From contig OZ241920.1 in the NCBI GenBank assembly GCA_965203885.1, positions 3,858,323 to 3,922,322 on the forward strand: 64,000 bases of DNA. Direction: 5' to 3'. Made by a program: the position numbers and the translations under genes. This DNA comes from a bacterium (GTDB taxonomy: Bacteria > JAAXHH01). This document shows, in pieces, positions 5,135 through 64,000 of this stretch (positions are counted from its first letter, which is position 1; every line of letters starts with the position of its first letter). The notes beneath the pieces are model-generated. The model was not told the DNA's origin, searched no databases, and was given only the letters and a program-made list of their open reading frames with translations.

Positions 5135-5315
5135 ACGTAGGGGCGACCCTTGTGGTCGCCCGCCCGGAAACGGCGGCCAAGTCGTCCCGGGGGGAGCTTG
5201 GTACTGGTGGCGTGGCTTGGACCGAAGAGGGCACCCACAAGGGGTGCCCCTACGGGGATTCAAAATCGAGGCTCGATCCGTTATGAACACCTGTATTTGC
5301 GGGACGGCACACTAA
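5135..5315. repeat. Bipartite REP/MITE-like intergenic element, copy 1 (about 180 bp)
   Basis: Contains hairpin GTAGGGGCGACCCTTGTGGTCGCCC (5137..5161) and hairpin GGGCACCCACAAGGGGTGCCCCTAC (5229..5253). Its reverse complement aligns by hand to 43717..43897 with about a dozen mismatches. Confidence 0.8.
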
Positions 5316-9839: not shown

Positions 9840-10694
9840 CTAGTTTGCTTGCGGTCCTAGCCTCAAAATCTGAATGGCCCTGCGTTCTCCCTCAGTCGGT
9901 TTGATACGTCCATGATAGGGCTGTTCTGCGTGACACACTATGCAGAGAACAGCTAGGTTCTCCGATCGATTATCCCATGTAACACCATTCTTGTGATGTA
10001 CATGAAGCAAGTGCTGATGGTTAGGAGCTGAGAGTCCAACATGGCACTCGTCGCATCGCCAATTTCGTTTCTTTTTTACAGAGACTGATTTGCGAGACCA
10101 TTCAGAGACGTAGCCTCCTCGCGGCGACGTTTGATCCGAGTATTTGGGTAATGTCTGGAAAAACGTCTCGTATGTCTGGAAAAAATCGCGCAAGTTAAAT
10201 TGTACCCACAACTGATTCTGCTTCCGCGTATCCCAATTTGAGCTGTAGCCCTTCCAGTTGACAGCCCAAAGACAATTTTTGCAGACGCGCAGTCGGGCCT
10301 CGATTTCACTGCCTTCAATATCATTGACTGCGAACAATCCATCTTGTCGTGTCGTCACGACGTACCTTTCGAACCGACGACTCCTACGCATCTGCCGAAT
10401 AGTCGCACATTCATAGATATGAAATCGTCGTGCATCTTCAGGAAAGTTCTGGAGTATGTACGTGCTCTGTCTTGTTTCCTTAATGTATAGGACGATCTGC
10501 TCCCCTTTGAATTTAAGCAGTCTCCCAGGTCCGGGCCTTACCTCGGTAATCTGAGCGTCTATCCCAGTTGATAGTTTTCTCCTAAGTTCTCTTACGGGCG
10601 CTGGCACGTACGGTGCGAGACTCCAATTAGATGGCCTTGCACCCATCTGATGCACAAGGTTTTCGAGTGGCAAGAAGTTTACACCTGTCTTCAC
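9840..10694 (-). CDS. zorE: HNH endonuclease-domain protein (ZorE-like)
   Basis: 284 aa. The C-terminus reads CDECHVGLSAPNHQHLLHVHHKNGVTWDNRSENLAVLCIVCHAEQ, which is an HNH motif with Cys pairs. Its GTG start overlaps the upstream stop (GTGA at 10691-10694). Confidence 0.7.
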   Translation of the reverse strand: MKTGVNFLPLENLVHQMGARPSNWSLAPYVPAPVRELRRKLSTGIDAQITEVRPGPGRLLKFKGEQIVLYIKETRQSTYILQNFPEDARRFHIYECATIRQMRRSRRFERYVVTTRQDGLFAVNDIEGSEIEARLRVCKNCLWAVNWKGYSSNWDTRKQNQLWVQFNLRDFFQTYETFFQTLPKYSDQTSPRGGYVSEWSRKSVSVKKKRNWRCDECHVGLSAPNHQHLLHVHHKNGVTWDNRSENLAVLCIVCHAEQPYHGRIKPTEGERRAIQILRLGPQAN

Positions 10695-11395
10695 TGCACC
10701 GTTTCCAATATCTTGACAATCTGCTCCTTAGTGTTAGTAAGCACTCGAAATTCAACGCGCCGTGATGCCACTGTGTCCTCTCGTGAACCTCGAAAAACCA
10801 AACGACTGGAAGAAAGACCATTCGCTGTGATGAGTTTGCGTGCCCATTTTCTTGATGGTCGAACCGATCGCAACCCCAAACAGTATTCTAGTACCGCGCG
10901 GGTTCTAGCTTGGGAGAGTTCCATGTTGTGAAAGTACGCCTCGTCCTCAGTTTGCGCACCATCCCACTCTGATGACGTATGGCCCTCGAGGCGGACCTCT
11001 ACAATTGCATTTCTATACCGTTCCAATACAAGAAGGTAGCGTGGGAAGAATTCTTCTAGGATCCGCTTGAACTTCGGCCTGAGTTCCGCCGCCGCCGAGG
11101 CAAACAGAACATCTGGCGCCTTGAAACGTATCGAGAGAGTCTCCCGATCCAACTCCGCGGCCCATCGCGGCAGATCGTTCTCGAACTCTTCGTTGAGTGA
11201 TTTGTGGATCTCCACCTCAGAATCTTGCCATGTGACAACGATCTCTCGGATTTTACTCTGGACCTCGACTATGGGCCGGATATAGGTAATCGCAATAAAG
11301 AGAAAAATGATCATGAGACCAGCCATCATGTCCGCGACAGATACCCATTGCTCATCGTCGGACCTGCTGCCTCGCCCGAACAGCTTTTGCGTCAT
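10691..11395 (-). CDS. zorB: MotB/OmpA-like stator subunit (ZorB-like)
   Basis: 234 aa. It has a single N-terminal TM helix with the conserved Asp (VSVADMMAGLMIIFLFI). The C-terminal OmpA-like region reads LEGHTS...NMELSQARTRAV...SRRVEFRV. There is an ATGA overlap with the upstream gene at 11392-11395. Confidence 0.75.
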   Translation of the reverse strand: MTQKLFGRGSRSDDEQWVSVADMMAGLMIIFLFIAITYIRPIVEVQSKIREIVVTWQDSEVEIHKSLNEEFENDLPRWAAELDRETLSIRFKAPDVLFASAAAELRPKFKRILEEFFPRYLLVLERYRNAIVEVRLEGHTSSEWDGAQTEDEAYFHNMELSQARTRAVLEYCLGLRSVRPSRKWARKLITANGLSSSRLVFRGSREDTVASRRVEFRVLTNTKEQIVKILETVQ

Positions 11396-12810
11396 CGATT
11401 GACGTCCCTTGCGATTGCGATTATGCGTCTAAGCTCTTCGACTAACGGCCCATAGTCACGCACAAACTTTTCTGACAAGGCGGCCAGGTGCTGTCCCATA
11501 GCTTGTATGTTCTGACGAAGTGCTTCCTGCGTTCTCCTTTCAAAACTATCAAATGTACTTGTGATCTTTTTCTCGGTCTTCTGGAACGAGGCATTAAGGG
11601 CATTTGTAAATCGTTTCTGCGATTCATTGGAATTGTCCAAGAGCGCGATGTACCCGTGTTGGAGTTCTTGATGGGCCTCTTGTTGGCGGCCCAGCACCTG
11701 AGCCGACTGTTCGACTACGTTTTGGACCGATTGCTGAAACCTGCTTGTCAGCGTCTCAAGATTCTTTTCGATCATAGGAAACGCTTCAAGGGCTTGAGTC
11801 TTCAGCGAAGAGATTGCATCTAGGTGGCCGTTGAGATCCTTCGTCGCGCCTGACAGTCGCACTTGGATCTGCTCCATATTGTCGAGCGTTTCTGGAATGC
11901 TCCCTGCGTAGCCGACAATTTCGCGCAGGGATTTTTCGGATTCTTTGATCCCCTGTAGCGCCGTGTCAAAATTCCGTTCCAGCTGTTCGACGTGCTCCCG
12001 ATATCTCTCCTGCCATCTGAGCAGTGCACCAACAGCCTCGTTGAGCTGCTTGAAATTGTCGCCGAATTGCTCGTTCAACTGGGTGTTGAAGTCACGAATT
12101 ACCTCTTCAAGAGCCTCAATGAGTGCTTTCGAATTGCTCTCGGCCATTGTTTTTGCGAACTCACGAAATTCCTTGATCAGATCCTTCTGGCCATCCATGA
12201 AGTCCATGCGGAGCCTCTGTACCTGAGTAAGCAGACTGCTCTCGCTATCAGCAGAGATCGCCTTTCTCAGATTTTCCAAGGCCGTGCGCTGCTGTTCGGC
12301 TCCGTTGTCGATGGCCTCCTTGATCAACTCTAGAGTCCTGTGGATGGCAATGGCGGGATTTTCCTCCTCGACCGTGCCATCATGCCTTCTTGCATGTAGA
12401 AATCGAAGGCGAATCGCCATCAAGATGCCGAGAATACTGGTCAAAAATGCAAATTTCAGACCCTCCAACAATCGGGGCACACTCTCATCGATTTTCTCTA
12501 CATTGAAACCAATGAGGCCCCAGAAGATTCCGACGAAGGTACCGAGCACACCGATCGTGGTCAGCAAAGCGGGTCCACGAGCGTAAAGTGGACTATCCGG
12601 TGGCTGGCCCTTGAAATGGTAAAAGGCTATGAAAATCGCGGCAGTGGATATACCCAGAATCCCGACAGTGGATATATCAATCTCAAAGACAAAGATCCCC
12701 AGAATACCGACAGTGACAAGAACCAGAATTACGATAGCCGGCACAGTCTGGTCCTGAGATTTCGGCTGTGAATGACTACCCTTCACCTCTGCCATATTTC
12801 TGCCTTGCAC
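11392..12810 (-). CDS. zorA: MotA/ExbB-like proton-channel protein with a long coiled-coil tail (ZorA-like)
   Basis: 472 aa. N-terminal TM helices carry LLTTIGVLGTFVGIFWGL...LKFAFLTSILGILMAI, the MotA_ExbB signature. About 300 aa of heptad-like, Glu/Gln/Leu-rich helix follow. The real start may be the ATG at 12795 (MAEVKG). Confidence 0.75.
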   Translation of the reverse strand: MQGRNMAEVKGSHSQPKSQDQTVPAIVILVLVTVGILGIFVFEIDISTVGILGISTAAIFIAFYHFKGQPPDSPLYARGPALLTTIGVLGTFVGIFWGLIGFNVEKIDESVPRLLEGLKFAFLTSILGILMAIRLRFLHARRHDGTVEEENPAIAIHRTLELIKEAIDNGAEQQRTALENLRKAISADSESSLLTQVQRLRMDFMDGQKDLIKEFREFAKTMAESNSKALIEALEEVIRDFNTQLNEQFGDNFKQLNEAVGALLRWQERYREHVEQLERNFDTALQGIKESEKSLREIVGYAGSIPETLDNMEQIQVRLSGATKDLNGHLDAISSLKTQALEAFPMIEKNLETLTSRFQQSVQNVVEQSAQVLGRQQEAHQELQHGYIALLDNSNESQKRFTNALNASFQKTEKKITSTFDSFERRTQEALRQNIQAMGQHLAALSEKFVRDYGPLVEELRRIIAIARDVNR

Positions 12811-35449: not shown

Positions 35450-35559
35450 GCTTTCCCCTGAATCGGACAACCTCGGTGGCGGATGAAGGATCGTGCCGGT
35501 TTTCCGCCGGCGGGTACCGCTATCCTCCTTCAGGGGACTTCTTACAATCCCTGATGATC

Positions 35560-35813
35560 GTAGGGGCACCCCTTGTGGGTGCCCTGCGGGGTCGCATGGT
35601 TCCCCGGCTGAGTCGCCGCTCCACGTCGCCATTCCCGGCGCCCGGAAGGACGCCGATCCCAGTCGGCGCCGAGGACGACGCCGCTCCAGACGCCGCTCCC
35701 GGTCGGCGACTAGAAAGTCGCCGCTCCACCCCCCCCGGTTCGGTAGTGCCCAGGCAATGGCCGGCGGACGGTGGCGCCGTTCGGGGGAGGGCGACCACAA
35801 GGGTCGCCCCTAC
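35560..35813. repeat. Bipartite REP-like element, copy 2 (long spacer with extra hairpins)
   Basis: GTAGGGGCACCCCTTGTGGGTGCCC (35560..35584) and GGGCGACCACAAGGGTCGCCCCTAC (35789..35813). The spacer holds GGCGACT-AGAA-AGTCGCC and two AGTCGCCGCTCCAC motifs. Confidence 0.75.
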
Positions 35814-35881
35814 GAGTCGTTCGACAGCGGCGACGCGGTGGGTGCCGCCAACGGACAATCCCCGCCCAGTTTCTCGCGGGA

Positions 35882-43716: not shown

Positions 43717-43897
43717 TAGTGTGCCGTCCCGCAAATACATGTATTCGTAGCGGATCGAGCCTCGATTTCGAATCCCCGTAGGGGCACCCCTTGTGGGTGC
43801 CCTCTTCGGTCCAAGTCACGCCATCAGTACCAAGCTCCCCCCGGGACGACTCGGCCGCCGTTGTCGGACGGGCGACCACAAGGGTCGCCCCTACGTC
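43717..43897. repeat. Bipartite REP/MITE-like element, copy 3 (inverted relative to copy 1)
   Basis: GTAGGGGCACCCCTTGTGGGTGCCC (43778..43802) and GGGCGACCACAAGGGTCGCCCCTAC (43870..43894). The whole 181 bp matches the reverse complement of 5135..5315. Confidence 0.8.
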
Positions 43898-57102: not shown

Positions 57103-57552
57103 CTCCCGTTCACTCGCGGAAATCGGCTTCCACTTGCCCGTAGTCCAGCGGCGCCACAAGAGCGAGACCGCCGCCCCCGCTCCCAGAGCGATGTAGACTC
57201 CCGCGACGCCCAGACGGTATCCAATGGAGTGGTCGTACCACGTGACCAGGAGCATGGTCGACAAAATGAAGAACATGTCTTCTTTGTCCGACTGGTCGAG
57301 TTCCCCTCTCCAAAGCTTCGTCAGGACGGGTACGTCAGTGTTCTTGCGCCGGCGCCAGGTGAACTCCATCGCGAGAGCTCCGGAAACCAAGAATCCAAAG
57401 AACGTGATGGGGATCACCGCGTAGGGAGGGACAACCTCCGGGATTTCCTCCAAGGCTCCATGCAACCAGGAAGCGGCGAGGACAGCGATGATGAAGACCC
57501 CAACTCGGAGAATTCGGGATCTTGACAGGAAATCGTCATCTCCCATTGGCAA
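57085..57552 (-). CDS. Hypothetical four-TM membrane protein
   Basis: 155 aa with hydrophobic segments VGVFIIAVLAASWL, VIPITFFGFLVSGALAM, MFFILSTMLLVTW and GVAGVYIALGAGAAVSLL. Confidence 0.5.
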   Translation of the reverse strand: MPMGDDDFLSRSRILRVGVFIIAVLAASWLHGALEEIPEVVPPYAVIPITFFGFLVSGALAMEFTWRRRKNTDVPVLTKLWRGELDQSDKEDMFFILSTMLLVTWYDHSIGYRLGVAGVYIALGAGAAVSLLWRRWTTGKWKPISASEREGSAGK

Positions 57553-57623
57553 GCCTGTTGGTAATTGAATTGTACATGGAGATCAGATCGTGTCGAAGGC
57601 GTGCCTGAAACCGTTCAGAAATT

Positions 57624-57656
57624 TGCAGAAGGGGACAGTCACTTTCTTGCGCTGTC
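57624..57656. repeat. 33-nt REP-like repeat, copy b (direct orientation)
   Basis: TGCAGAAGGGGACAGTCACTTTCTTGCGCTGTC. It differs from copy a at three positions. Confidence 0.65.
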
Positions 57657-57854
57657 AGGACCACCGTGCACCGGGGACCGGAGAACTGTGAGAAAAGAGG
57701 GTGGCGGGGAGTGCGGCAGTTTTCTTGTCGCCGATTCCGGGCGGTAGTGCGGGCGACAAGGATGACCCCCGTCCCATTGGGGGTTTTCCTACCCCCGCCT
57801 CCGGCAGCTCGTTCTTGGAAACGACATCCGACCGTTGCTGGAGGGCCAGAAGGA

Positions 57855-58451
57855 TCACTTGTCCGACTGGCGCGCCGATTGAACAGATCTACTTTGTCGA
57901 GGCGAACCCCAGTACCAGGCCGCGAACGCGAGCGTACGCACTCGTCGGGCCACGCTGCGAACAGAGGCGGGGAACCAGGCCAACTCGCGATCAGAAGATT
58001 GCCGGGATTGCGCCGATCGAGCATGAACGCCGCGCAGACGCGCCGCTCTGACCCGCACTCCGATGGGCTGACAGCGAGCGTGCGGCACCAGAGTTCCGTC
58101 CGCTTCGAGCGGATAGGTCTCGGGCAGTCCGAGAGCCCGAACACCAGCCTGGGAATGTGCGTCACAGACGACCTGCCGGCGCGGCAAGACGCATCCCAGC
58201 AGAATCGGACCCGTGTCATCGCGAAGATCTTCCGGTTCGTAGGGCCACTTGGCGATGAAAGCCCGAAGATTCAATTGCGCCGTCACCATGTCTTCGTTCA
58301 GGTAGAGCACAGGAAAACTGTCCGGCGGATTCCAGCGGCCACCCAGCTTCCGCGCATAACTCGGATCAAGCGGATTGGTCCATGCCGGATCGGCGATACG
58401 CCACCAGACGTGCGCATCCGAAACCGTTTCGCGCCGCAGTTCCAGGGTCAC
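57855..58451 (-). CDS. RES-domain toxin (NAD-targeting family)
   Basis: GGRWNPPDSFPVLYL, then downstream R...E...S context. I prefer the GTG at 58451, which overlaps the Xre stop (GTGA). The track start is 58487. Confidence 0.75.
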   Translation of the reverse strand: MTLELRRETVSDAHVWWRIADPAWTNPLDPSYARKLGGRWNPPDSFPVLYLNEDMVTAQLNLRAFIAKWPYEPEDLRDDTGPILLGCVLPRRQVVCDAHSQAGVRALGLPETYPLEADGTLVPHARCQPIGVRVRAARLRGVHARSAQSRQSSDRELAWFPASVRSVARRVRTLAFAAWYWGSPRQSRSVQSARQSDK

Positions 58452-58921
58452 GCGTGCACTCGGTCGAATCGGAACATGTCGCGGCATGCCGCCACGACCG
58501 CTCGCGTATCACCCTGTGCCAACAGGTTCACGAGGGACACGCCGCCAAGCGATTGGATAGGTCTGCGCACGACGGCCGGGATTCGGTCGCGTTTGAGATA
58601 GTTTACGAGGAGGTCGGTGGCGCCCGCCAGATCCGACACTGCGCCAGCGCGTTCCGCGGGCACACCCTGCTGCAGCCATTTACCGACTGCTTGGCGGCTC
58701 ACACCGAAGAGACGGGCCGTTTCGGCTTGGCTCAGATCCCAGACCCTTAGGGTTCGCGCCAAGGACCCGCCTGCCCGTCGGCGATCAAGGCTACTGGTAA
58801 ACGCGTCCAGCCAAGCGCTTTCGTTCTCGTGCGCTCTGAATATCTGCTCGGCCGCCTCTTCCGGGCCGAGTCCGCTGATCGTCGCGACCGTTTTCACCCT
58901 TCGCTCTCCGATGGCCCGCAA
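58448..58921 (-). CDS. Xre-type antitoxin with a DUF2384/ParS-like toxin-binding domain
   Basis: It has an HTH (LSQAETARLFGVSRQAVGKWLQ) and a C-terminal PIQSLGGVSLVNLLAQGD. The start codon is uncertain (TTG at 58921). Confidence 0.7.
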   Translation of the reverse strand: MRAIGERRVKTVATISGLGPEEAAEQIFRAHENESAWLDAFTSSLDRRRAGGSLARTLRVWDLSQAETARLFGVSRQAVGKWLQQGVPAERAGAVSDLAGATDLLVNYLKRDRIPAVVRRPIQSLGGVSLVNLLAQGDTRAVVAACRDMFRFDRVHA

Positions 58922-59061
58922 CCATAAGTCAACCGCTACCGAAAGTCAACTTGTGATCCCGTTAAGCCAGCCTTCCGAGCGCGGCGCCGATGACGATACC
59001 TGATGTGATTGAACTGCCTCTCTCACTCCGTCGCCGTCTACCGGCAGCCGGTCTAGGGAGT

Positions 59062-59493
59062 CTATTCGTCACAGCCGTCGCAGGCATAGTGATCGGGGGC
59101 GTCTATCACGTAATCCGTGAAATAAATTCGTTCATTGTCGTCTGTACGGTCACAATCCGCCCCTGTACTCACTTCCTGCGATTCCCCCTTCCGCAGGTCC
59201 CACACTGTGAATTGTTCGAGGCCGGTCCACGTGCCGTTACACTTGATTCTCGCGTTCAGTGATACACGCTCAAGGTGTGTTTTCCCGCCTTCGACCTCAA
59301 CATATAAATACCCATATCGGGACCACCCGGAAACGACTTTGAAATCGAACTCCACGTCAGGGGCCACCGTGCAACGGAACTCTCTCTCTTCGTTATCCGT
59401 CGGACCCAAGTCCCGACACAAATACCAGTCCGTCCCGAACGAAACACTGGAGATGAGCAGAGTCAGCAATAACATACAAACCGACTTGATCAT
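59062..59493 (-). CDS. Small secreted Cys-rich hypothetical protein
   Basis: The start MIKSVCMLLLTLLISSVSFG (ATG at 59493) overlaps the upstream stop as ATGA. GAAGGTGGG lies upstream. The region is lower in GC. Confidence 0.5.
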   Translation of the reverse strand: MIKSVCMLLLTLLISSVSFGTDWYLCRDLGPTDNEEREFRCTVAPDVEFDFKVVSGWSRYGYLYVEVEGGKTHLERVSLNARIKCNGTWTGLEQFTVWDLRKGESQEVSTGADCDRTDDNERIYFTDYVIDAPDHYACDGCDE

Positions 59494-59924
59494 TTTCCCA
59501 CCTTCGGTTTTCTCCACCATTCCTTAGAAATCCCTTTTGGGTTGTTTTTCAATTCCTGAACTACACCTCGAATGTAGTTGCAAGTGTCCTTCACGATATT
59601 CGAGGATGACATAACACCCCCACGGTAAGCCATTAAATCCCCCTGGGAATTCCACAGGAGTAAATAGTGGCCGTGTTCGTACTCATACTCTACGACAAAG
59701 TCTGCCGCTTCCTGTTTGATTGTGGGGATAATTCCGGCACATTCCTTCCGCTGCAACAAATGGATTGTATACTCGTACCGCGTGGGACCTTCAGTTCCAA
59801 GAGGAATATCGGTGACAGATCCGATATAGAGCCGCACCAAGGAAGAATCGCCCGTCTCTGCCCCAAACACAACCCCGACGGCCAAGGCGGCTAGTGCCAG
59901 TGTGAGAATCAGTTTGCGTTTCAT
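59490..59924 (-). CDS. Small secreted hypothetical protein
   Basis: 144 aa with signal peptide MKRKLILTLALAALAVGVVFG and AAAGGAAAT upstream. Confidence 0.5.
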   Translation of the reverse strand: MKRKLILTLALAALAVGVVFGAETGDSSLVRLYIGSVTDIPLGTEGPTRYEYTIHLLQRKECAGIIPTIKQEAADFVVEYEYEHGHYLLLWNSQGDLMAYRGGVMSSSNIVKDTCNYIRGVVQELKNNPKGISKEWWRKPKVGK

Positions 59925-60021
59925 TGGTTTATTTCCTTTGTATTAGCCAAGAAGCCTGTCCGCGTCTTCCGTGTTTCCATCATGGCTAGCATTATACCGG
60001 AAATCTATGACACTTCTTTGG

Positions 60022-60285
60022 CTAGTTTGTTATATAATTCCCCTTATCAAACCAATCAATGAACTCCGAGACCCCTCCTCTGATTTCCTTTCCCCAACAT
60101 ACATTCTCCTTCCAGAGCACGATTGCATCCGAACTGACATCTACACCGGACCGCTTTTCTCTGAACTCCCGACGAACTGCCGGAGCCGCCGGACATCTAT
60201 CAACACTCCTTCTATTCCCCTGCTGAATATCAGATTTCGTCACCGAGATCCGTCTGATGATCTGACGTTGCACTTCTCCATCCAT
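60022..60285 (-). CDS. Possible small hypothetical protein
   Basis: 87 aa from the ATG at 60285, with GAAGG 9 nt upstream. It lies immediately after the nucleotidyltransferase stop. The opposite-strand ORF 59971..60339 looks non-protein-like. Confidence 0.3.
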   Translation of the reverse strand: MDGEVQRQIIRRISVTKSDIQQGNRRSVDRCPAAPAVRREFREKRSGVDVSSDAIVLWKENVCWGKEIRGGVSEFIDWFDKGNYITN

Positions 60286-60290
60286 TCCCA

Positions 60291-61211
60291 CTACCTTCGA
60301 TACCGGGAGATCAACGTCTCCAGATCATTTAGGATCTGATTCCCCATTTCCGGCAACACGATCACCTTTCGGAGTGAACCAAAGTGGATCTCCAGGCACT
60401 CCATGAGAACCCGACCAATGGCCTTCTCGCTCACCGAATTCCGGACCATGCTTTTCGTCACAAGCTCCTCCATCGCCTGCTCTTTCGCCTCGAACCAGCC
60501 CATCAACCGATCCAAACTCCACTCTCCGGCACGGATGGAGTTGTATACCTTGGAATCCCGATCCAGTACCAGATGACCCGAACTCAATATCTGCTCACAC
60601 TCCAGCATGAGCCGGATCAGGTTGTATCCGTACTTCACATCGTACCCGTACTTTTCGATCGACTCCGCCCGTTTCGGATTCCTCTTGGCCGTTTTCTTCT
60701 TGATCTTGGCCAGCTGCGCACAGGCGTACCCGCGGAACGTGTGATAGGACCGTTTCGACAGGAACAGTCGACGGTTACTCCTCAGATGCTCAAATACGGA
60801 TGAGGACTTCGTCACACACCGCCTCGGGGCAAACAGGGAGTCGAGCATATTCGGCTTGTTCTGCATGGTCAGGTGGAAGTACTTCACGATACCGTAGATC
60901 ACGAAGTCATACGTCAGACCATGCTCCTTGTACTCGACATGATGGCGCTGTAGCTGCTCGAACGACTCCGGCTTTCGACCGAATCCAGGGATGTATCCCG
61001 TGAGATGAGGGAACACCATCTCCTTACGTGGGATCGTGAATCCAACGATGTCCCGGTCCGAGCTATTCCGATCCCGGCACCCGTACGCCTCGCTTCCCAT
61101 GATGCACTCGTACATCAGATTGTCCGAGACATACCTCAGTGCCGGAGGGAGTTCAATCAACCCCTTCCGGACAAATTTGACAAAGTGAGAACTATTCGCC
61201 CCTTTGCTCAT
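60291..61211 (-). CDS. Pol-beta-superfamily nucleotidyltransferase (RlaP/pfam10127-like)
   Basis: 306 aa with IMGSEAYGCRDRNSSDRDIVGF (the GS...SDxD NTase motif) and YGYDVKYGYNLIRLMLECEQILSSGHL. Confidence 0.65.
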   Translation of the reverse strand: MSKGANSSHFVKFVRKGLIELPPALRYVSDNLMYECIMGSEAYGCRDRNSSDRDIVGFTIPRKEMVFPHLTGYIPGFGRKPESFEQLQRHHVEYKEHGLTYDFVIYGIVKYFHLTMQNKPNMLDSLFAPRRCVTKSSSVFEHLRSNRRLFLSKRSYHTFRGYACAQLAKIKKKTAKRNPKRAESIEKYGYDVKYGYNLIRLMLECEQILSSGHLVLDRDSKVYNSIRAGEWSLDRLMGWFEAKEQAMEELVTKSMVRNSVSEKAIGRVLMECLEIHFGSLRKVIVLPEMGNQILNDLETLISRYRR

Positions 61212-61615
61212 TGATCCTCCTGATCCTTCTGGACCCGATACTCCAGACCATAGAACTGGAACCCGAAGATCGATATCAGATCCCGAGCCTTACGCGTGAA
61301 CCTGACTGTCTCGACTTCCCCTTTCTCATACTCCATCCACTTCCGGGCAGCCGTGAGATAGTCCGAATCCGACTTCAGAAACGTGTTCGGATCACCCTGT
61401 TTCCGATAGAGCCTCGCGGTAGACAACAGACCCTCCTCAAAGTTCCTTTTTGCCTGGTACACAGTGTTTCCCTGGGCAAAGCAGTCCACTTCGACCGCCT
61501 CGGCAAACCAGCCATCTCCGTGACCTTGCCGCACATGTACTGGCGCATCCATCGAAGGAAGACGATCAAGCCCCCGACAATGGCCGCGCCGAGGCTGCCT
61601 TCCGGCATCGCTCAA
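61208..61615 (-). CDS. HicB-like (UPF0150 fold) small protein
   Basis: VHVRQGHGDGWFAEAVEVDCFAQGNTVYQAKRNFEEGL matches the HicB N-domain pattern. The start is either the TTG at 61615, overlapping the helicase stop, or the ATG at 61552. Its stop overlaps the NTase ATG (ATGA). Confidence 0.55.
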   Translation of the reverse strand: MSDAGRQPRRGHCRGLDRLPSMDAPVHVRQGHGDGWFAEAVEVDCFAQGNTVYQAKRNFEEGLLSTARLYRKQGDPNTFLKSDSDYLTAARKWMEYEKGEVETVRFTRKARDLISIFGFQFYGLEYRVQKDQEDQ

Positions 61616-64000
61616 CGGCGCCGATTTCTCTGGGCGAGAGCGCGGAGGATCTCGTCGAGCACCGTCTCCAATTCGGCGCCGACGTCTTCGGCCAGGAACC
61701 TGAGCACGAAGTAGCCGTGTCGCTGCAGCAGGGCGTCCTTGCTGCGGTCCCGCCGATAGGCCTCACGGTCCGCCAGATGGTGGGCGCCGTCCAGTTCCAC
61801 GACCAGCCGGGCCGAAGGGTCGAGGAAATCGACTTCCATGTGGTTCTGCCCGCAAAACGGAATGGGCAACCGTTCGTTCAACCGGAATCGACCGCGGGTT
61901 TCGGGCAGACTTTGCAGCCGACGAAAGAAGAACGCTTCGCTGGAGCTGCGGGCTTGCGAGGCATCGGGACTGCCGTCCGGCGATGCGGTCGTCAGACGAC
62001 GGAACAGGTCGCCGAGCGGAGCATCTACGCCATCCCGTGACAGACGCCTCACACTCCCGGCGTACCGCTGTTTCCAGGCTCCGTCGGCGGGGAGGGGGAC
62101 GGACGGGGGCCAACCGGGAACCGCGCTGGCCGGCGACGAAATCGTGTATCCAAGGGACTCATAGCTGCGGCGCCGCCTGTCGAACATGCGGGACAACATC
62201 GGTACGTCCAAGTCCGCATAGTCGTACACGCGGACCTGGCGCTTGGAGCGGCGCCTGCGATGCAACCGGCCGACGTACTGCGTGATGGTCCCACGCCAGG
62301 ACACCGGCATGGTGAGAAACAACGTATCGAGCCGCGGGTTGTCGAACCCTTCTCCGACGAACCGGCCCGTCGCCAACAACACCCGTCCGGCGGCGTTCTC
62401 GGCGGCGCGCGCCAGGGCGGAGGCGAGTGCCTTCCGTCCCATGCCTCCCTGGAGCGACACGACGTCGAGACCGTCGGCCCGGAGCTTTTCGGCGAGAACC
62501 TCGAGATGACCGACGCGTTCGGTCAGCACCAGCGGCGCCTGCCCGCCGCGGACGCTCTCCGCCACGTCCGCGCAGATGAGAGAGTTCCGAAGCTCGTCGG
62601 CAGCCAATTGACGCAGGATCCGCTGGAACTCGACGCGCTGATCGGCGTCCGGTTCTCCCTGGACGCGGAAGCCCGTCGGCCGGACGAGCACGTCGCGGGT
62701 GAACGGCGTCGTCAGTGCCTGCAGCCCGGCATCCACCCGGCGACGGACGGGCCCGCACTGCATGAACACGATGGGGTGATGACCGTCCTTCCTCGTCACC
62801 GTCGCCGACAGTCCCGCGACGTACTTCGCCTTGGCGCGACCGACGGCCAGTTCGAAACCGCGGGCGGGAACATGGTGACACTCGTCCACGATCACGAAGC
62901 CGTAGTCCGCGACGCAGTCGTCCACCTCGCCCCGGCGCACCAGGCTCTGCATCATGGCGACGTCGACCCTTCCGGTGAGCTTCCTCCGTCCCCCTCCCAG
63001 GCGACCGATCTCCCCCTCCGCGATGCCCAGAAACTGGGACAACCGGGCGACCCACTGATCCAGCAACTGTTGGCGATGGACCATGACCAGGGCGTTGACG
63101 CCGCGCTCCGCAATCAACCATGCAGCCACGACGGTCTTCCCGAACGCGGGGCCCGCCGCCAGAACGCCGGTATCGTGCGCCAGCAGGGCTCTCGCCGCCG
63201 CTTCCTGTTCCGGACGCAGAGATCCGCGGAATCGAAGCGAAAGAGGGACTCCCGAGTTGCGCTCGTCCCTGATCTTGGACCTGATCTTGTACCGGGCGAG
63301 CAGTCCTTCGACCGGTTCCAGGCAACCCCTTGGAAATCCAATGAATTTCGATCCATGCTCCACGCAGTCGATGATCCGCGGCTTGCCGAACGTCGACAGG
63401 CGCATCGCCTGCGCCCGGTAGAACTCGGGATTCTGAAATGCGGCCAACCGCATGAGCGCCGCGACGATGCCCGGCGGCAAGGCGTCCTTGGCGACGTAGA
63501 TCCGATCGCCGAGAACGATCTCCAAGAGATCGGGAACGGGACCGCCGATGGGCGGAAGCGGAAGTCGACGGGACGGCGGTGCAGACCACGGCGCGTCGGC
63601 GAAGGCGTCTTCGTGCTCCACCACCGCCGCGACTCCCATGACGGGTCCTCGCTTCTCCGCATGGGACACGATGGACTCCGCCTGCGCCGCAGGGATCCGG
63701 CGAAGCTCCGAGAGGAACGCCCACTGGTCCGGATACGGCTTCAGCTCGGAATCGACGAAGACACTGTTGCCGTTTCGACGCGGCCCGTGCTGCAGCGGAA
63801 GGGCGATGAGATTGCCGAATCCGCCCCGGGGCAAGGTATCCTGATTCGGAAAGAACCGGTCGTAGGAACGAAAACCCAGGTCCGGTCGCTCCTCCATCGC
63901 CTCGGTGAGAATCAGGGAGCCCAATCGGCGAGCCAGACCGGCCGGCAACGCCTCGTCGAAAAACATCCACGCGTGGCCACCGTTCCCGGATCGGGACCGT
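61612..64000 (-). CDS. AEP primase-polymerase-like / SF2 DExH helicase / DUF559 endonuclease fusion protein; N-terminus outside the window
   Basis: The frame stays open upstream of the track start. My own translation of 64000..63964 gives RSRSGNGGHAW before MFFDEALP, an AEP sGxGxH motif. GGFGNLIALPLQ follows. Helicase motifs are AGPAFGKTV (I), VIVDECHH (II), GLSAT (III) and QYVGRLHR (VI). The C-terminal EVDFLDPSARLVVELDGAHH...GYFVLRF matches DUF559/Vsr-like. Confidence 0.75.
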   Translation of the reverse strand, partial: RSRSGNGGHAWMFFDEALPAGLARRLGSLILTEAMEERPDLGFRSYDRFFPNQDTLPRGGFGNLIALPLQHGPRRNGNSVFVDSELKPYPDQWAFLSELRRIPAAQAESIVSHAEKRGPVMGVAAVVEHEDAFADAPWSAPPSRRLPLPPIGGPVPDLLEIVLGDRIYVAKDALPPGIVAALMRLAAFQNPEFYRAQAMRLSTFGKPRIIDCVEHGSKFIGFPRGCLEPVEGLLARYKIRSKIRDERNSGVPLSLRFRGSLRPEQEAAARALLAHDTGVLAAGPAFGKTVVAAWLIAERGVNALVMVHRQQLLDQWVARLSQFLGIAEGEIGRLGGGRRKLTGRVDVAMMQSLVRRGEVDDCVADYGFVIVDECHHVPARGFELAVGRAKAKYVAGLSATVTRKDGHHPIVFMQCGPVRRRVDAGLQALTTPFTRDVLVRPTGFRVQGEPDADQRVEFQRILRQLAADELRNSLICADVAESVRGGQAPLVLTERVGHLEVLAEKLRADGLDVVSLQGGMGRKALASALARAAENAAGRVLLATGRFVGEGFDNPRLDTLFLTMPVSWRGTITQYVGRLHRRRRSKRQVRVYDYADLDVPMLSRMFDRRRRSYESLGYTISSPASAVPGWPPSVPLPADGAWKQRYAGSVRRLSRDGVDAPLGDLFRRLTTASPDGSPDASQARSSSEAFFFRRLQSLPETRGRFRLNERLPIPFCGQNHMEVDFLDPSARLVVELDGAHHLADREAYRRDRSKDALLQRHGYFVLRFLAEDVGAELETVLDEILRALAQRNRRR

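What the first reader, a model, noticed from the sequence alone, without database searches (positions are those of the whole stretch)
60022..61615. Lower-GC HicB-like / RlaP-like nucleotidyltransferase / small-ORF cassette joined onto the 3' end of the high-GC helicase gene
At the helicase stop (61612-61614) base composition drops abruptly. A hand-counted line at 60601 gives 52% G+C, against a sampled core line of 67% and a helicase that reads as clearly GC-richer.

The following genes are chained by 4-nt overlaps: a possible TTGA at 61612-61615 and ATGA at 61208-61211. A further small ORF starts right after the NTase stop.

The first protein has a HicB-type fold signature but no HicA partner. 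The second is a pol-beta NTase (GS...SDxD) of the RlaP type.

A HicB-like adaptor next to an NTase and behind a helicase-nuclease is not a module I can name. It could be a separate antitoxin/NTase pair captured by the operon, or accessory subunits of the helicase system.
Basis: partly seen in the sequence, partly recalled or inferred. Interest (0 to 1): 0.65.

Follow-up and report, generated by a model that had tools for sequence, protein, structure and literature searches.

The report
Phage-type RNA nucleotidyltransferase beside orphan HicB-like gene
Behind a stand-alone primase-helicase-nuclease gene lies a patch of lower-GC foreign DNA that carries an intact phage-type RNA-end nucleotidyltransferase (RlaP) and two decaying small genes; it is a lineage-specific mosaic in a defence island, not a new helicase accessory module.

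Summary
G+C falls from 0.66 in the helicase to 0.54 in the small gene and the NTase, then to 0.49 further on. The ATGA overlap exists, and the 306-aa protein is a full-length RlaP (PF10127) NTase with all family-invariant residues. The small upstream protein has no Pfam hit, but it belongs to a real family of about 50-110 members, and its predicted structure best matches HicB N-terminal domains.

- 0 of 80 helicase-homologue loci carry an RlaP or the HicB-like gene, and the helicase has no conserved neighbour at all.
- 0 of 24 RlaP-homologue loci, mostly phage, carry the HicB-like gene or the helicase.
- 63 of 72 HicB-like loci carry a conserved partner of about 80 aa instead of an NTase. That partner is absent from the window.

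In sister strains at 96-99% identity, the HicB-like gene is split by two repeat-element insertions or frameshifted. The 89-aa ORF carries premature stops there, while the NTase stays intact.

Best reading: a mosaic of horizontally acquired DNA whose only maintained cargo is a phage-type RNA 3'-end nucleotidyltransferase. The HicB-like gene is an orphan in decay, and the 89-aa ORF is a relic of a phage gene (phrog_19191). Interest is low to moderate.

The parts
61612..63966 (-). The 3' 784 codons of a 940-aa AEP(PrimPol)-SF2 helicase-DUF559 nuclease gene. The gene start lies beyond the window end. This is high-GC resident context, not part of the cassette.
   Evidence: Pfam hits: AEP-TOTE 2.5e-36, ResIII 8e-15, DUF559 3.6e-13. 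The full 940-aa form is seen in L001, L002 and L004. G+C is 0.661 and GC3 0.795. Substitutions against L001 are 37 synonymous to 20 non-synonymous. The C-terminus is native, because homologues align to residues 935-940.
61553..61611 (-). Spacer between the helicase stop and the ATG of the small gene. It is the 'TTG-start extension' of the 135-aa ORF reading and is probably untranslated.
   Evidence: G+C is 0.65, with GC3 lower than GC1 and GC2. AlphaFold2 pLDDT is below 50 for residues 5-20. The sequence is replaced or interrupted in the L004-type allele. No terminator or sigma-70 promoter was predicted.
61208..61552 (-). Orphan HicB-fold small protein gene (114 aa from ATG 61552). Its stop overlaps the NTase start (ATGA).
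   Evidence: A remote family was found by exhaustive HMMER and a profile search. The family HMM gives E 4.7e-13. AlphaFold2 and Foldseek point to HicB N-terminal domains. The gene is disrupted in L004, L005, L182 and P0180.
60291..61211 (-). RlaP-family (PF10127) Pol-beta nucleotidyltransferase, 306 aa, full length and catalytically intact. This is the maintained cargo.
   Evidence: Pfam 3e-15 and phrog_388 2.5e-38. All 35 invariant columns are kept. The protein is 306 aa in 15 of 16 close cluster members. The closest non-self homologue (63%) sits in a T4-like phage contig, and 217 GenBank phage records hold a homologue.
60022..60291 (-). 89-aa ORF: a decaying relic of a phage gene (phrog_19191, function unknown), effectively intergenic in this population.
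   Evidence: phrog_19191 matches at E 7e-5 and 4.7e-7, while scrambled controls (five shuffles, one reversal) are negative. Premature stops occur in L001 and L004, and L002/L003 have a different C-terminus. Substitutions are 2 synonymous to 8 non-synonymous at 96% identity. GC3 is 0.50. Gene callers never called it as a complete gene.
59062..59924 (-). Two overlapping small genes for signal-peptide proteins (144 aa at 59490-59924; 152 aa at 59062-59520). They form the distal part of the low-GC patch and are a presence/absence polymorphism.
   Evidence: G+C is 0.487 and 0.519. They are absent from L002 and L003, where a 167-bp MITE-like element lies instead. No Pfam or PHROG hits.

Best explanation
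Window 59007-61550 is a patch of about 2.5 kb of horizontally acquired, lower-GC DNA. It sits just downstream of a stand-alone AEP-helicase-DUF559 gene, inside a defence and toxin-antitoxin island of a sponge-associated bacterium.

It is a mosaic, not a functional module of the helicase.
- The one component that selection keeps intact is a phage-type RlaP nucleotidyltransferase. By homology to characterised RlaP enzymes, it most likely adds one or two nucleotides to the 3'-OH of damaged RNAs or tRNAs. That would be RNA-end repair or protection (inferred).
- The upstream HicB-fold gene is an orphan. Its family normally precedes a partner gene of about 80 aa, and here the NTase occupies exactly the partner's slot with an ATGA overlap. 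The gene is dispensable and decaying in the population.
- The 89-aa ORF downstream is a relic of a phage gene.
- The two secreted-protein genes are a further indel.

Expression is probably by read-through from the helicase gene or from an unrecognised internal promoter (inferred, not shown).
For: Shown:
- The GC and GC3 break.
- RlaP membership and intact catalytic residues.
- The NTase's nearest relatives are in phage or mobile contexts. The 63% homologue is in a T4-like contig, the 56% homologue is next to an RNA ligase, 19 viral contigs hold relatives, and 217 phage records hold a homologue.
- No RlaP or HicB-like gene in any of 80 helicase-homologue loci, and no conserved helicase neighbour.
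- No HicB-like gene or helicase in any of 24 NTase loci, and no conserved NTase neighbour.
- 63 of 72 HicB-like loci have the partner of about 80 aa and none has an NTase. The partner is absent from the window.
- The HicB-like gene is split by two repeat-element insertions in L004, L005 and L182, and frameshifted in P0180. The NTase there is 306 aa with consensus residues.
- In the disrupted allele the HicB-like remnant shows 1 synonymous to 5-6 non-synonymous changes.
- The 89-aa ORF has premature stops in two relatives but keeps its homology to phrog_19191.

From the literature: RlaP adds 1-2 NMP to RNA 3'-OH ends, prefers damaged RNA, and was over-expressed and purified from E. coli (PMC12776372).
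Against: - The ATGA overlap, and the fact that both the HicB-like C-terminus and the NTase N-terminus are family-native, make a 'clean' junction. This could reflect selected translational coupling rather than accident.
- The HicB-like gene and the NTase have identical G+C (0.54), so they may have arrived as a pre-formed pair.
- In the window itself all three ORFs are intact.
- No RNA ligase, RtcB or kinase-phosphatase partner lies within about 10 kb (gene tables), so a repair role lacks its usual neighbours.
- The window's NTase carries K119 where at least 90% of the family has N.
- No transcript data could be obtained.
Confidence: 0.62

Rival explanations
1. The HicB-fold protein and the RlaP NTase form a new toxin-antitoxin or abortive-infection pair. 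The NTase would be a MenT/AbiEii-like toxin that blocks tRNAs by adding nucleotides to their 3' ends, and the HicB-fold protein would neutralise it.
For: - Antitoxin-first gene order with a 4-nt ATGA overlap.
- The HicB-like fold.
- The NTase sits exactly where the family's usual small partner sits.
- The locus lies in an island rich in toxin-antitoxin and defence genes: RES/Xre, MazE-like, PDC-S01.
- RlaP chemistry, NMP addition to RNA 3' ends (PMC12776372), is the same reaction that NTase toxins use. That last comparison rests on my own knowledge of MenT.
Against: - The HicB-like gene is disrupted in many sister strains while the NTase stays full length with all invariant residues. A toxin that needs its antitoxin would not tolerate this.
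- The pairing is found nowhere else.
- Characterised RlaP enzymes were over-expressed in E. coli.
- The small protein has no recognisable DNA-binding domain.
Confidence: 0.13
2. The HicB-fold protein is a non-toxic adaptor or RNA-binding specificity factor for the NTase, and the two act together as a two-subunit RNA-end-modifying enzyme.
For: - ATGA coupling and equal G+C.
- The HicB N-domain fold is related to dsRBD and RNase H-like RNA-binding folds; a Dicer-2/R2D2 hit appears.
Against: - The gene is dispensable in sister strains.
- No co-occurrence elsewhere.
- RlaP homologues in phages have no conserved neighbour.
Confidence: 0.1
3. The HicB-like protein and the NTase are accessory subunits of the AEP-helicase-nuclease (TOTE-type) system, for example with the small protein acting as the system's TBP-like component.
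For: - Same strand, no predicted terminator, and a possible TTGA overlap with the helicase stop.
- The linkage is conserved in all close relatives.
- The helicase's AEP domain belongs to the Pfam 'TOTE conflict system' family.
Against: - 0 of 80 helicase-homologue loci carry either gene, and the helicase has no conserved neighbour.
- The GC/GC3 discontinuity.
- The fold search gives HicB, not TBP.
- The linkage is seen only among relatives that are 96-99% identical, so it reflects shared descent.
- The L004 allele has about 460 bp of repeats inserted between the helicase and the NTase.
Confidence: 0.04

Closest known systems
RlaP family nucleotidyltransferases (Pfam PF10127; P. fluorescens/P. 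aeruginosa RlaP, T4 NrdC.11)
   Same: The Pfam hit is well above the gathering score. The Pol-beta motif GS...DxD and all invariant residues are present. The protein is full length and collinear with its homologues. Its relatives are abundant in phages (PMC12776372).
   Different: It is not next to an RNA ligase, RtcB or RtcA, the association that gave the family its name. Instead it sits in a defence island behind a helicase-nuclease and is preceded by a HicB-fold ORF. It has K119 in the otherwise conserved NNPNM motif.
HicB antitoxins of HicAB type II toxin-antitoxin systems (e.g. PDB 6g1c, 6hpb, 4p78)
   Same: The predicted b1-b2-b3-a1...b4 core matches, as does the sequence pattern 'GWFA..vEvD..AQG.T..eAk.nfEeGL', in the register of HicB's 'GGY.v.vpdlp...tqGeT.eEA...a.eAL'.
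   Different: There is no Pfam HicB hit, no HicA neighbour, and no C-terminal RHH or HTH DNA-binding domain. The family's usual partner is an uncharacterised protein of about 80 aa that is not detectably HicA.
NTase toxins of toxin-antitoxin and Abi systems (MenT/AbiEii, DUF1814)
   Same: A Pol-beta-fold NTase encoded directly after a small antitoxin-like gene, and nucleotide addition to RNA 3' ends as the chemistry. The comparison rests on my own knowledge, not on a test.
   Different: It belongs to a different NTase family (RlaP, not AbiEii/DUF1814). The upstream gene is dispensable in sister strains. No toxicity is known for RlaP.
TOTE conflict systems (TPR, OB, TBP, Effector; Aravind et al. 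2022, as cited in PMC12458937)
   Same: The neighbouring helicase carries the AEP-TOTE domain.
   Different: No TPR, OB or TBP genes lie nearby, in this lineage or in 80 homologue loci. The small protein does not have a TBP fold.

Membership tests
RlaP (PF10127) | Match to the family HMM above the curated threshold | tested here: met
   57.0 bits against a cut-off of 23, E 3e-15. phrog_388 'nucleotidyltransferase' matches at 2.5e-38.
RlaP (PF10127) | Pol-beta NTase catalytic motif hG[GS] ... [DE]x[DE] plus a downstream carboxylate | tested here: met
   G39-S40, D52-R-D54 and Y101-D102 are all invariant columns in a 20-sequence alignment.
RlaP (PF10127) | Genomic association with an RNA ligase or RNA-repair operon (RtcB/RtcA, Rnl, Pnkp) | tested here: not met
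   No such gene appears in the Pfam-annotated tables of the orthologous loci within about 6-10 kb. A 56% homologue (L007) does sit next to PF09414 RNA_ligase.
RlaP (PF10127) | Adds 1-2 NMP to RNA 3'-OH ends | not testable with these tools
   The biochemistry is known only for the Pseudomonas enzymes (PMC12776372).
HicB antitoxin (HicAB) | HicB N-terminal domain fold (b-b-b-a-b, partial RNase H/dsRBD-like) | tested here: met
   The AlphaFold2 core has pLDDT 82-93. Foldseek gives 6g1c_B at probability 0.99 and TM 0.60, 6hpb_B at probability 0.99 and rmsd 1.8 over 53 columns, plus 3k6q and 4p78. E-values are weak, 0.02-0.16.
HicB antitoxin (HicAB) | Sequence match to HicB family models | tested here: not met
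   No Pfam hit at E<=10 for the window protein. None for 9 homologues at E<=1. hhalign against E. coli HicB gives probability 0.6%.
HicB antitoxin (HicAB) | Adjacent HicA toxin gene | tested here: not met
   The neighbours are the helicase and the RlaP gene. The family's own partner of about 80 aa is absent from the window, and that partner is not HicA by Pfam, PDB profile or hhalign.
HicB antitoxin (HicAB) | C-terminal RHH or HTH DNA-binding domain | tested here: not met
   No Pfam domain. The model shows two helices and a final strand that completes the sheet.
TOTE conflict system | TPR, OB-fold and TBP-domain genes together with an effector | tested here: not met
   Only the AEP-TOTE domain of the helicase is present. 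No conserved neighbours exist in 80 homologue loci. The small protein folds like HicB, not TBP.
NTase-toxin TA systems (MenT/AbiEii) | Toxin depends on a cognate upstream antitoxin; AbiEii/DUF1814 family | tested here: not met
   The family is RlaP, not AbiEii. The upstream gene is disrupted in L004, L005, L182 and P0180 while the NTase is intact. Toxicity itself is not testable here.

The most novel reading that the evidence does not exclude
A HicB-fold protein has swapped its usual small partner for an RlaP nucleotidyltransferase. This would create a new toxin-antitoxin or abortive-infection module in which an 'RNA-repair' NTase is used as a MenT-like tRNA 3'-end-modifying toxin or effector. 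The intact window allele would be the functional form, and the disrupted alleles would carry attenuated NTases.
Probability: 0.12. Interest if true: 0.6.

Novelty: new member of a known kind. Interest (0 to 1): 0.3.

Why it matters
Mainly as a caution. Tight gene chaining (4-nt overlaps, same strand) behind a defence gene does not by itself define a module. Here comparative context shows a lineage-specific mosaic that repeat elements are actively remodelling.

It does add a bacterial, defence-island context for phage-type RlaP enzymes, away from RNA ligases. That bears on whether RlaP works only in ligase-coupled RNA repair.

Two by-products may be worth more than the finding itself:
- an unannotated two-gene family, a HicB-fold protein plus a conserved partner of about 80 aa;
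- evidence that the 940-aa AEP-helicase-DUF559 protein is a widely transferred stand-alone gene with no conserved partners.

Tried and rejected
- Exact-sequence look-up of the window NTase found nothing.
- Rfam on 55000-64000 at E<=1 found nothing, so there is no known ncRNA in the 89-aa ORF region.
- A viral-contig scan for the HicB-like family gave no true relatives.
- PDB sequence searches gave nothing meaningful for the HicB-like profile, its partner profile or the NTase.
- The idea that the partner of about 80 aa is HicA-like was rejected at sequence level. Pfam's best E is 0.16 in 1 of 30 members, and hhalign probability is 4.5%.
- The idea that the 89-aa ORF is a degenerate copy of that partner was rejected (HMM E 1.9 on the wrong strand).
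- The 89-aa ORF gave no tblastn match in GenBank phages and only a spurious 14-aa match in viral contigs. No homologue lies next to NTase homologues.
- The search for flanking direct or inverted repeats, tRNA genes, promoters or terminators that would delimit the insert found nothing above chance.
- RNA evidence for co-transcription was not obtainable. The runs holding the sequence are sponge (meta)genome-like contig sets of unknown library type. They only confirmed the allele polymorphisms.
- The original TOTE description is not in the paper library.
Full report
Anatomy. All the genes discussed here lie on the minus strand, in this order.
- The helicase ORF at 61612-63966. It is the 3' 784 codons of a 940-aa protein whose start lies beyond the window end. 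Its domains are AEP-TOTE/PrimPol, an SF2 helicase (ResIII/DEAD/Helicase_C) and DUF559.
- A 135-aa ORF from TTG 61615, or 114 aa from ATG 61552, ending at 61208.
- A 306-aa ORF at 60291-61211.
- An 89-aa ORF at 60022-60291.
- Two overlapping signal-peptide genes of 144 and 152 aa at 59062-59924.
- An Xre-like/RES toxin-antitoxin pair at 57855-58921.

Checking the observation: composition.
- Per-gene G+C is 0.661 for the helicase (GC3 0.795), 0.539 for the 114-aa gene, 0.535 for the NTase, 0.485 for the 89-aa ORF, 0.487 and 0.519 for the two secreted-protein genes, and 0.641 again for the Xre-like gene.
- The break is at about 61500-61550. The 63 nt between the TTG and the ATG still have helicase-like composition.
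- The low-GC patch is longer than the finding and ends at about 59007-59060.

Checking the observation: overlaps and starts.
- ATGA at 61208-61211 and TTGA at 61612-61615 are both in the sequence.
- The NTase ATG is preceded by AGGAGG.
- The TTG start is not supported. The 21 extra residues are predicted disordered. They show no coding codon-position pattern. Gene callers used ATG 61552 or a later GTG in every related contig. Remote homologues conserve sequence from about residue 10 of the 114-aa form, which rules out the later GTG starts.

The NTase.
- It is a bona fide RlaP: PF10127 at 57 bits against a threshold of 23, and phrog_388 at 2.5e-38.
- It is collinear from residue 1 to the end with 19 homologues and keeps all 35 invariant columns, including G39-S40 and D52-x-D54.
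- Its closest non-self relative (63%) lies in a T4-like phage contig, directly after a DnaB-like helicase and among DNA polymerase B, a RecA/UvsX-like protein, RegA, sheath and terminase genes.
- A 56% relative sits beside an RNA ligase. A 55% relative is an isolated gene in a Nitrospinae MAG.
- Nineteen IMG/VR contigs and 217 GenBank phage records hold homologues.
- RlaP enzymes add one or two NMPs to RNA 3'-OH ends, prefer damaged RNA and help restore aminoacylation of repaired tRNA. They are common in phages, including T4 NrdC.11 (PMC12776372).

The small upstream protein.
- It has no Pfam hit even at E<=10. The word-indexed search found only near-identical proteins.
- The exhaustive HMMER search found nine remote homologues. 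A profile search raised this to 49, and a metagenome scan added 65 loci.
- The family motif is lRVll..dGWFAQGLEIDYaAQG.T.eEvKrnFE.GL.
- An AlphaFold2 model built on 54 sequences has mean pLDDT 74 and a core of 82-93. Its elements are b(24-30), b(36-40), b(46-49), a(52-73), a(83-96), a(108-117) and b(124-128).
- The high-probability Foldseek matches are HicB N-terminal domains: 6g1c_B at probability 0.99 and TM 0.60, 6hpb_B at 0.99, plus 3k6q and 4p78. E-values are only 0.02-0.16.
- hhalign against E. coli HicB aligns in the right register but is not significant.
No TBP-like match appeared, so the protein is not the TBP component of a TOTE system.

What normally accompanies each gene.
- HicB-like family: in 63 of 72 loci the gene is followed within a few nucleotides by a conserved protein of about 80 aa (motif ..LP..v.R.ml..l.r.y.iPIHhFYnPem). 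Most exceptions are contig ends. None has an NTase or the helicase. The partner is not detectably HicA and is absent from the whole window in six frames.
- Helicase: at least 593 relatives at 56-70% identity occur in species representatives of many phyla. In the best 80 loci with 6-kb flanks there is no RlaP, no HicB-like gene and no partner. No flanking protein family recurs in more than 3 loci. The helicase is a stand-alone gene.
- NTase: none of 24 homologue loci contains the HicB-like gene or the helicase, and its immediate neighbours are not conserved.
- The three genes are therefore linked only in this lineage.

Population evidence. Contigs 96-99% identical to the window come from sponge metagenomes.
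- L001 has the window's arrangement.
- L002 and L003 lack window 59007-60041, the two secreted-protein genes. They carry a 167-bp MITE-like element there instead.
- L004, L005 and L182 share an allele in which about 300 bp of palindrome-rich repeat replaces the ATG region of the HicB-like gene. The same 167-bp element, with terminal inverted repeats and a duplicated CCCAGG, is inserted after codon 27. Gene callers then report 177-aa plus 84-aa or 72-aa fragments.
- Both inserted elements are genome repeats; for example, a copy lies at window 49426-49623.
- Another allele, P0180, is frameshifted. Among the 11 close cluster members most are 72-84-aa fragments.
- By contrast the NTase is 306 aa in 15 of 16 close cluster members. 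In the disrupted-allele strains it carries the family-consensus N119 and H197, whereas the window has the derived K119 and N197.
- Substitution counts fit this picture. The helicase shows 37 synonymous to 20 non-synonymous changes. The NTase shows 5 to 4 at 99% identity. The HicB-like remnant in L004 shows 1 to 5-6.
- An NTase that tolerates loss of its upstream gene is unlikely to be a toxin held in check by it.

The 89-aa ORF.
- It is the most divergent segment (96%), with 2 synonymous to 8 non-synonymous changes and no third-position bias. Its GC3 is 0.50.
- It stops at codon 16 in L001 and at codon 66 in L004. Its C-terminus differs in L002 and L003, because the indel breakpoint at 60042 lies inside it.
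- It was never called as a complete gene.
- It nevertheless matches phrog_19191 (function unknown) over nearly its whole length, at E 7e-5. The L002 allele gives 4.7e-7, and five shuffles plus the reversed sequence give nothing below 0.04.
- I read it as a decaying relic of a phage gene. This also supports a phage or mobile-element origin for the patch.

Mechanism, with what is shown and what is inferred.
- Shown: a foreign-composition mosaic; an intact RlaP; an orphan, dispensable HicB-fold gene; a relic ORF; no linkage outside the lineage.
- Inferred: the NTase extends damaged RNA or tRNA 3' ends, as characterised RlaPs do. In a host packed with RNA- and NAD-targeting toxin systems, or under phage attack, this could restore tRNA function together with an RNA ligase encoded elsewhere.
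- Inferred: expression by read-through from the helicase gene. No terminator or sigma-70-like promoter was predicted, but such scans are weak evidence in this organism.
- Rivals are given in the Rival explanations section, with probabilities of 0.13 (toxin-antitoxin or Abi pair), 0.10 (adaptor plus enzyme) and 0.04 (helicase accessory).

Comparison and novelty. The NTase is a new member of the known RlaP family in an unusual but apparently incidental context. The small protein is a member of an unannotated HicB-fold family that has lost its usual partner. Nothing here requires a new kind of system. The junction is clean: a native C-terminus, a native N-terminus, an ATGA overlap and equal G+C. 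This keeps a partner-swap toxin-antitoxin reading alive at low probability.

Limits.
- Only 24 of more than 249 NTase-homologue contexts were inspected.
- The HicB fold rests on a predicted model with modest Foldseek E-values.
- No transcript data were available.
- The organism is known only as a sponge-associated bacterium.

Noticed in passing
L011:6001-6638; L012:6001-6664; L016:3356-4014; L018-L082 (metagenome loci): An unannotated two-gene module. A HicB-fold protein of 103-180 aa (motif GWFAQGLEIDYaAQG.T) is followed within a few nucleotides by a conserved protein of about 80 aa (motif iPIHhFYnPem). It occurs in 63 of 72 loci, in unrelated housekeeping neighbourhoods. Neither protein has a Pfam family, and the partner is not detectably HicA. 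It may be a new toxin-antitoxin-like pair.
   Followed up: partly
window 61612-63966 (gene continues beyond 64000); L083-L162: The 940-aa AEP(PrimPol)-SF2 helicase-DUF559 protein has at least 593 relatives at 56-70% identity. They span Verrucomicrobiota, Planctomycetota, Acidobacteriota, Proteobacteria and other phyla. It has no conserved neighbouring gene in 80 loci. It looks like a stand-alone, horizontally spread, single-gene conflict system, although its AEP domain is named for multi-gene TOTE systems. PADLOC matches only its PrimPol part.
   Followed up: partly
L004:6229-6768, L182:6412-6951, L002:11480-11646; window 49426-49623, 5136-5255, 35559-35814, 43776-43895: Two repeat families remodel this island. 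One is a palindrome-rich element of about 200 bp with copies scattered through the window. The other is a 167-bp MITE-like element with terminal inverted repeats and an apparent CCCAGG target duplication. They split the HicB-like gene in some strains. One fills the site of the two secreted-protein genes in another strain.
   Followed up: partly
window 59062-59924 (-): Two overlapping genes for small signal-peptide proteins (144 and 152 aa). They have no Pfam or PHROG hits and G+C of 0.49-0.52. They are found only in this lineage and are absent from strains L002 and L003.
   Followed up: partly
window 9840-12810 (-): A second low-GC island (about 0.50 G+C, the lowest in the window). It holds a three-gene operon chained by 4-nt overlaps: a 472-aa coiled-coil protein, a 234-aa OmpA/MotB-like protein and a 284-aa protein with a weak HNH_3 hit. 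It may be a Zorya-like or other membrane-anchored defence module.
   Followed up: no
window 50556-55735 (+): A 425-aa AAA_14+DUF4143 ATPase matches the PADLOC candidate system PDC-S01 (E 3.7e-165). It overlaps by 4 nt a 1301-aa ORF that has no Pfam or PADLOC hit at all.
   Followed up: no
window 56637-56957 (+), 57855-58921 (-): A MazE/AbrB-like antitoxin gene and an Xre-like/RES-domain toxin-antitoxin pair lie directly downstream of the cassette. In sister strains a HepT/MNT pair or an HTH-peptidase M78 gene lies upstream of the helicase. The region is a hotspot for toxin-antitoxin and defence genes.
   Followed up: partly
window 60855-60857 and 60621-60623 (NTase codons 119 and 197): The window's NTase has K119 in the otherwise conserved NNPNM motif and N197 where the family has H. 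All six sister-strain loci examined carry the consensus N119 and H197. The functional consequence is unknown.
   Followed up: no
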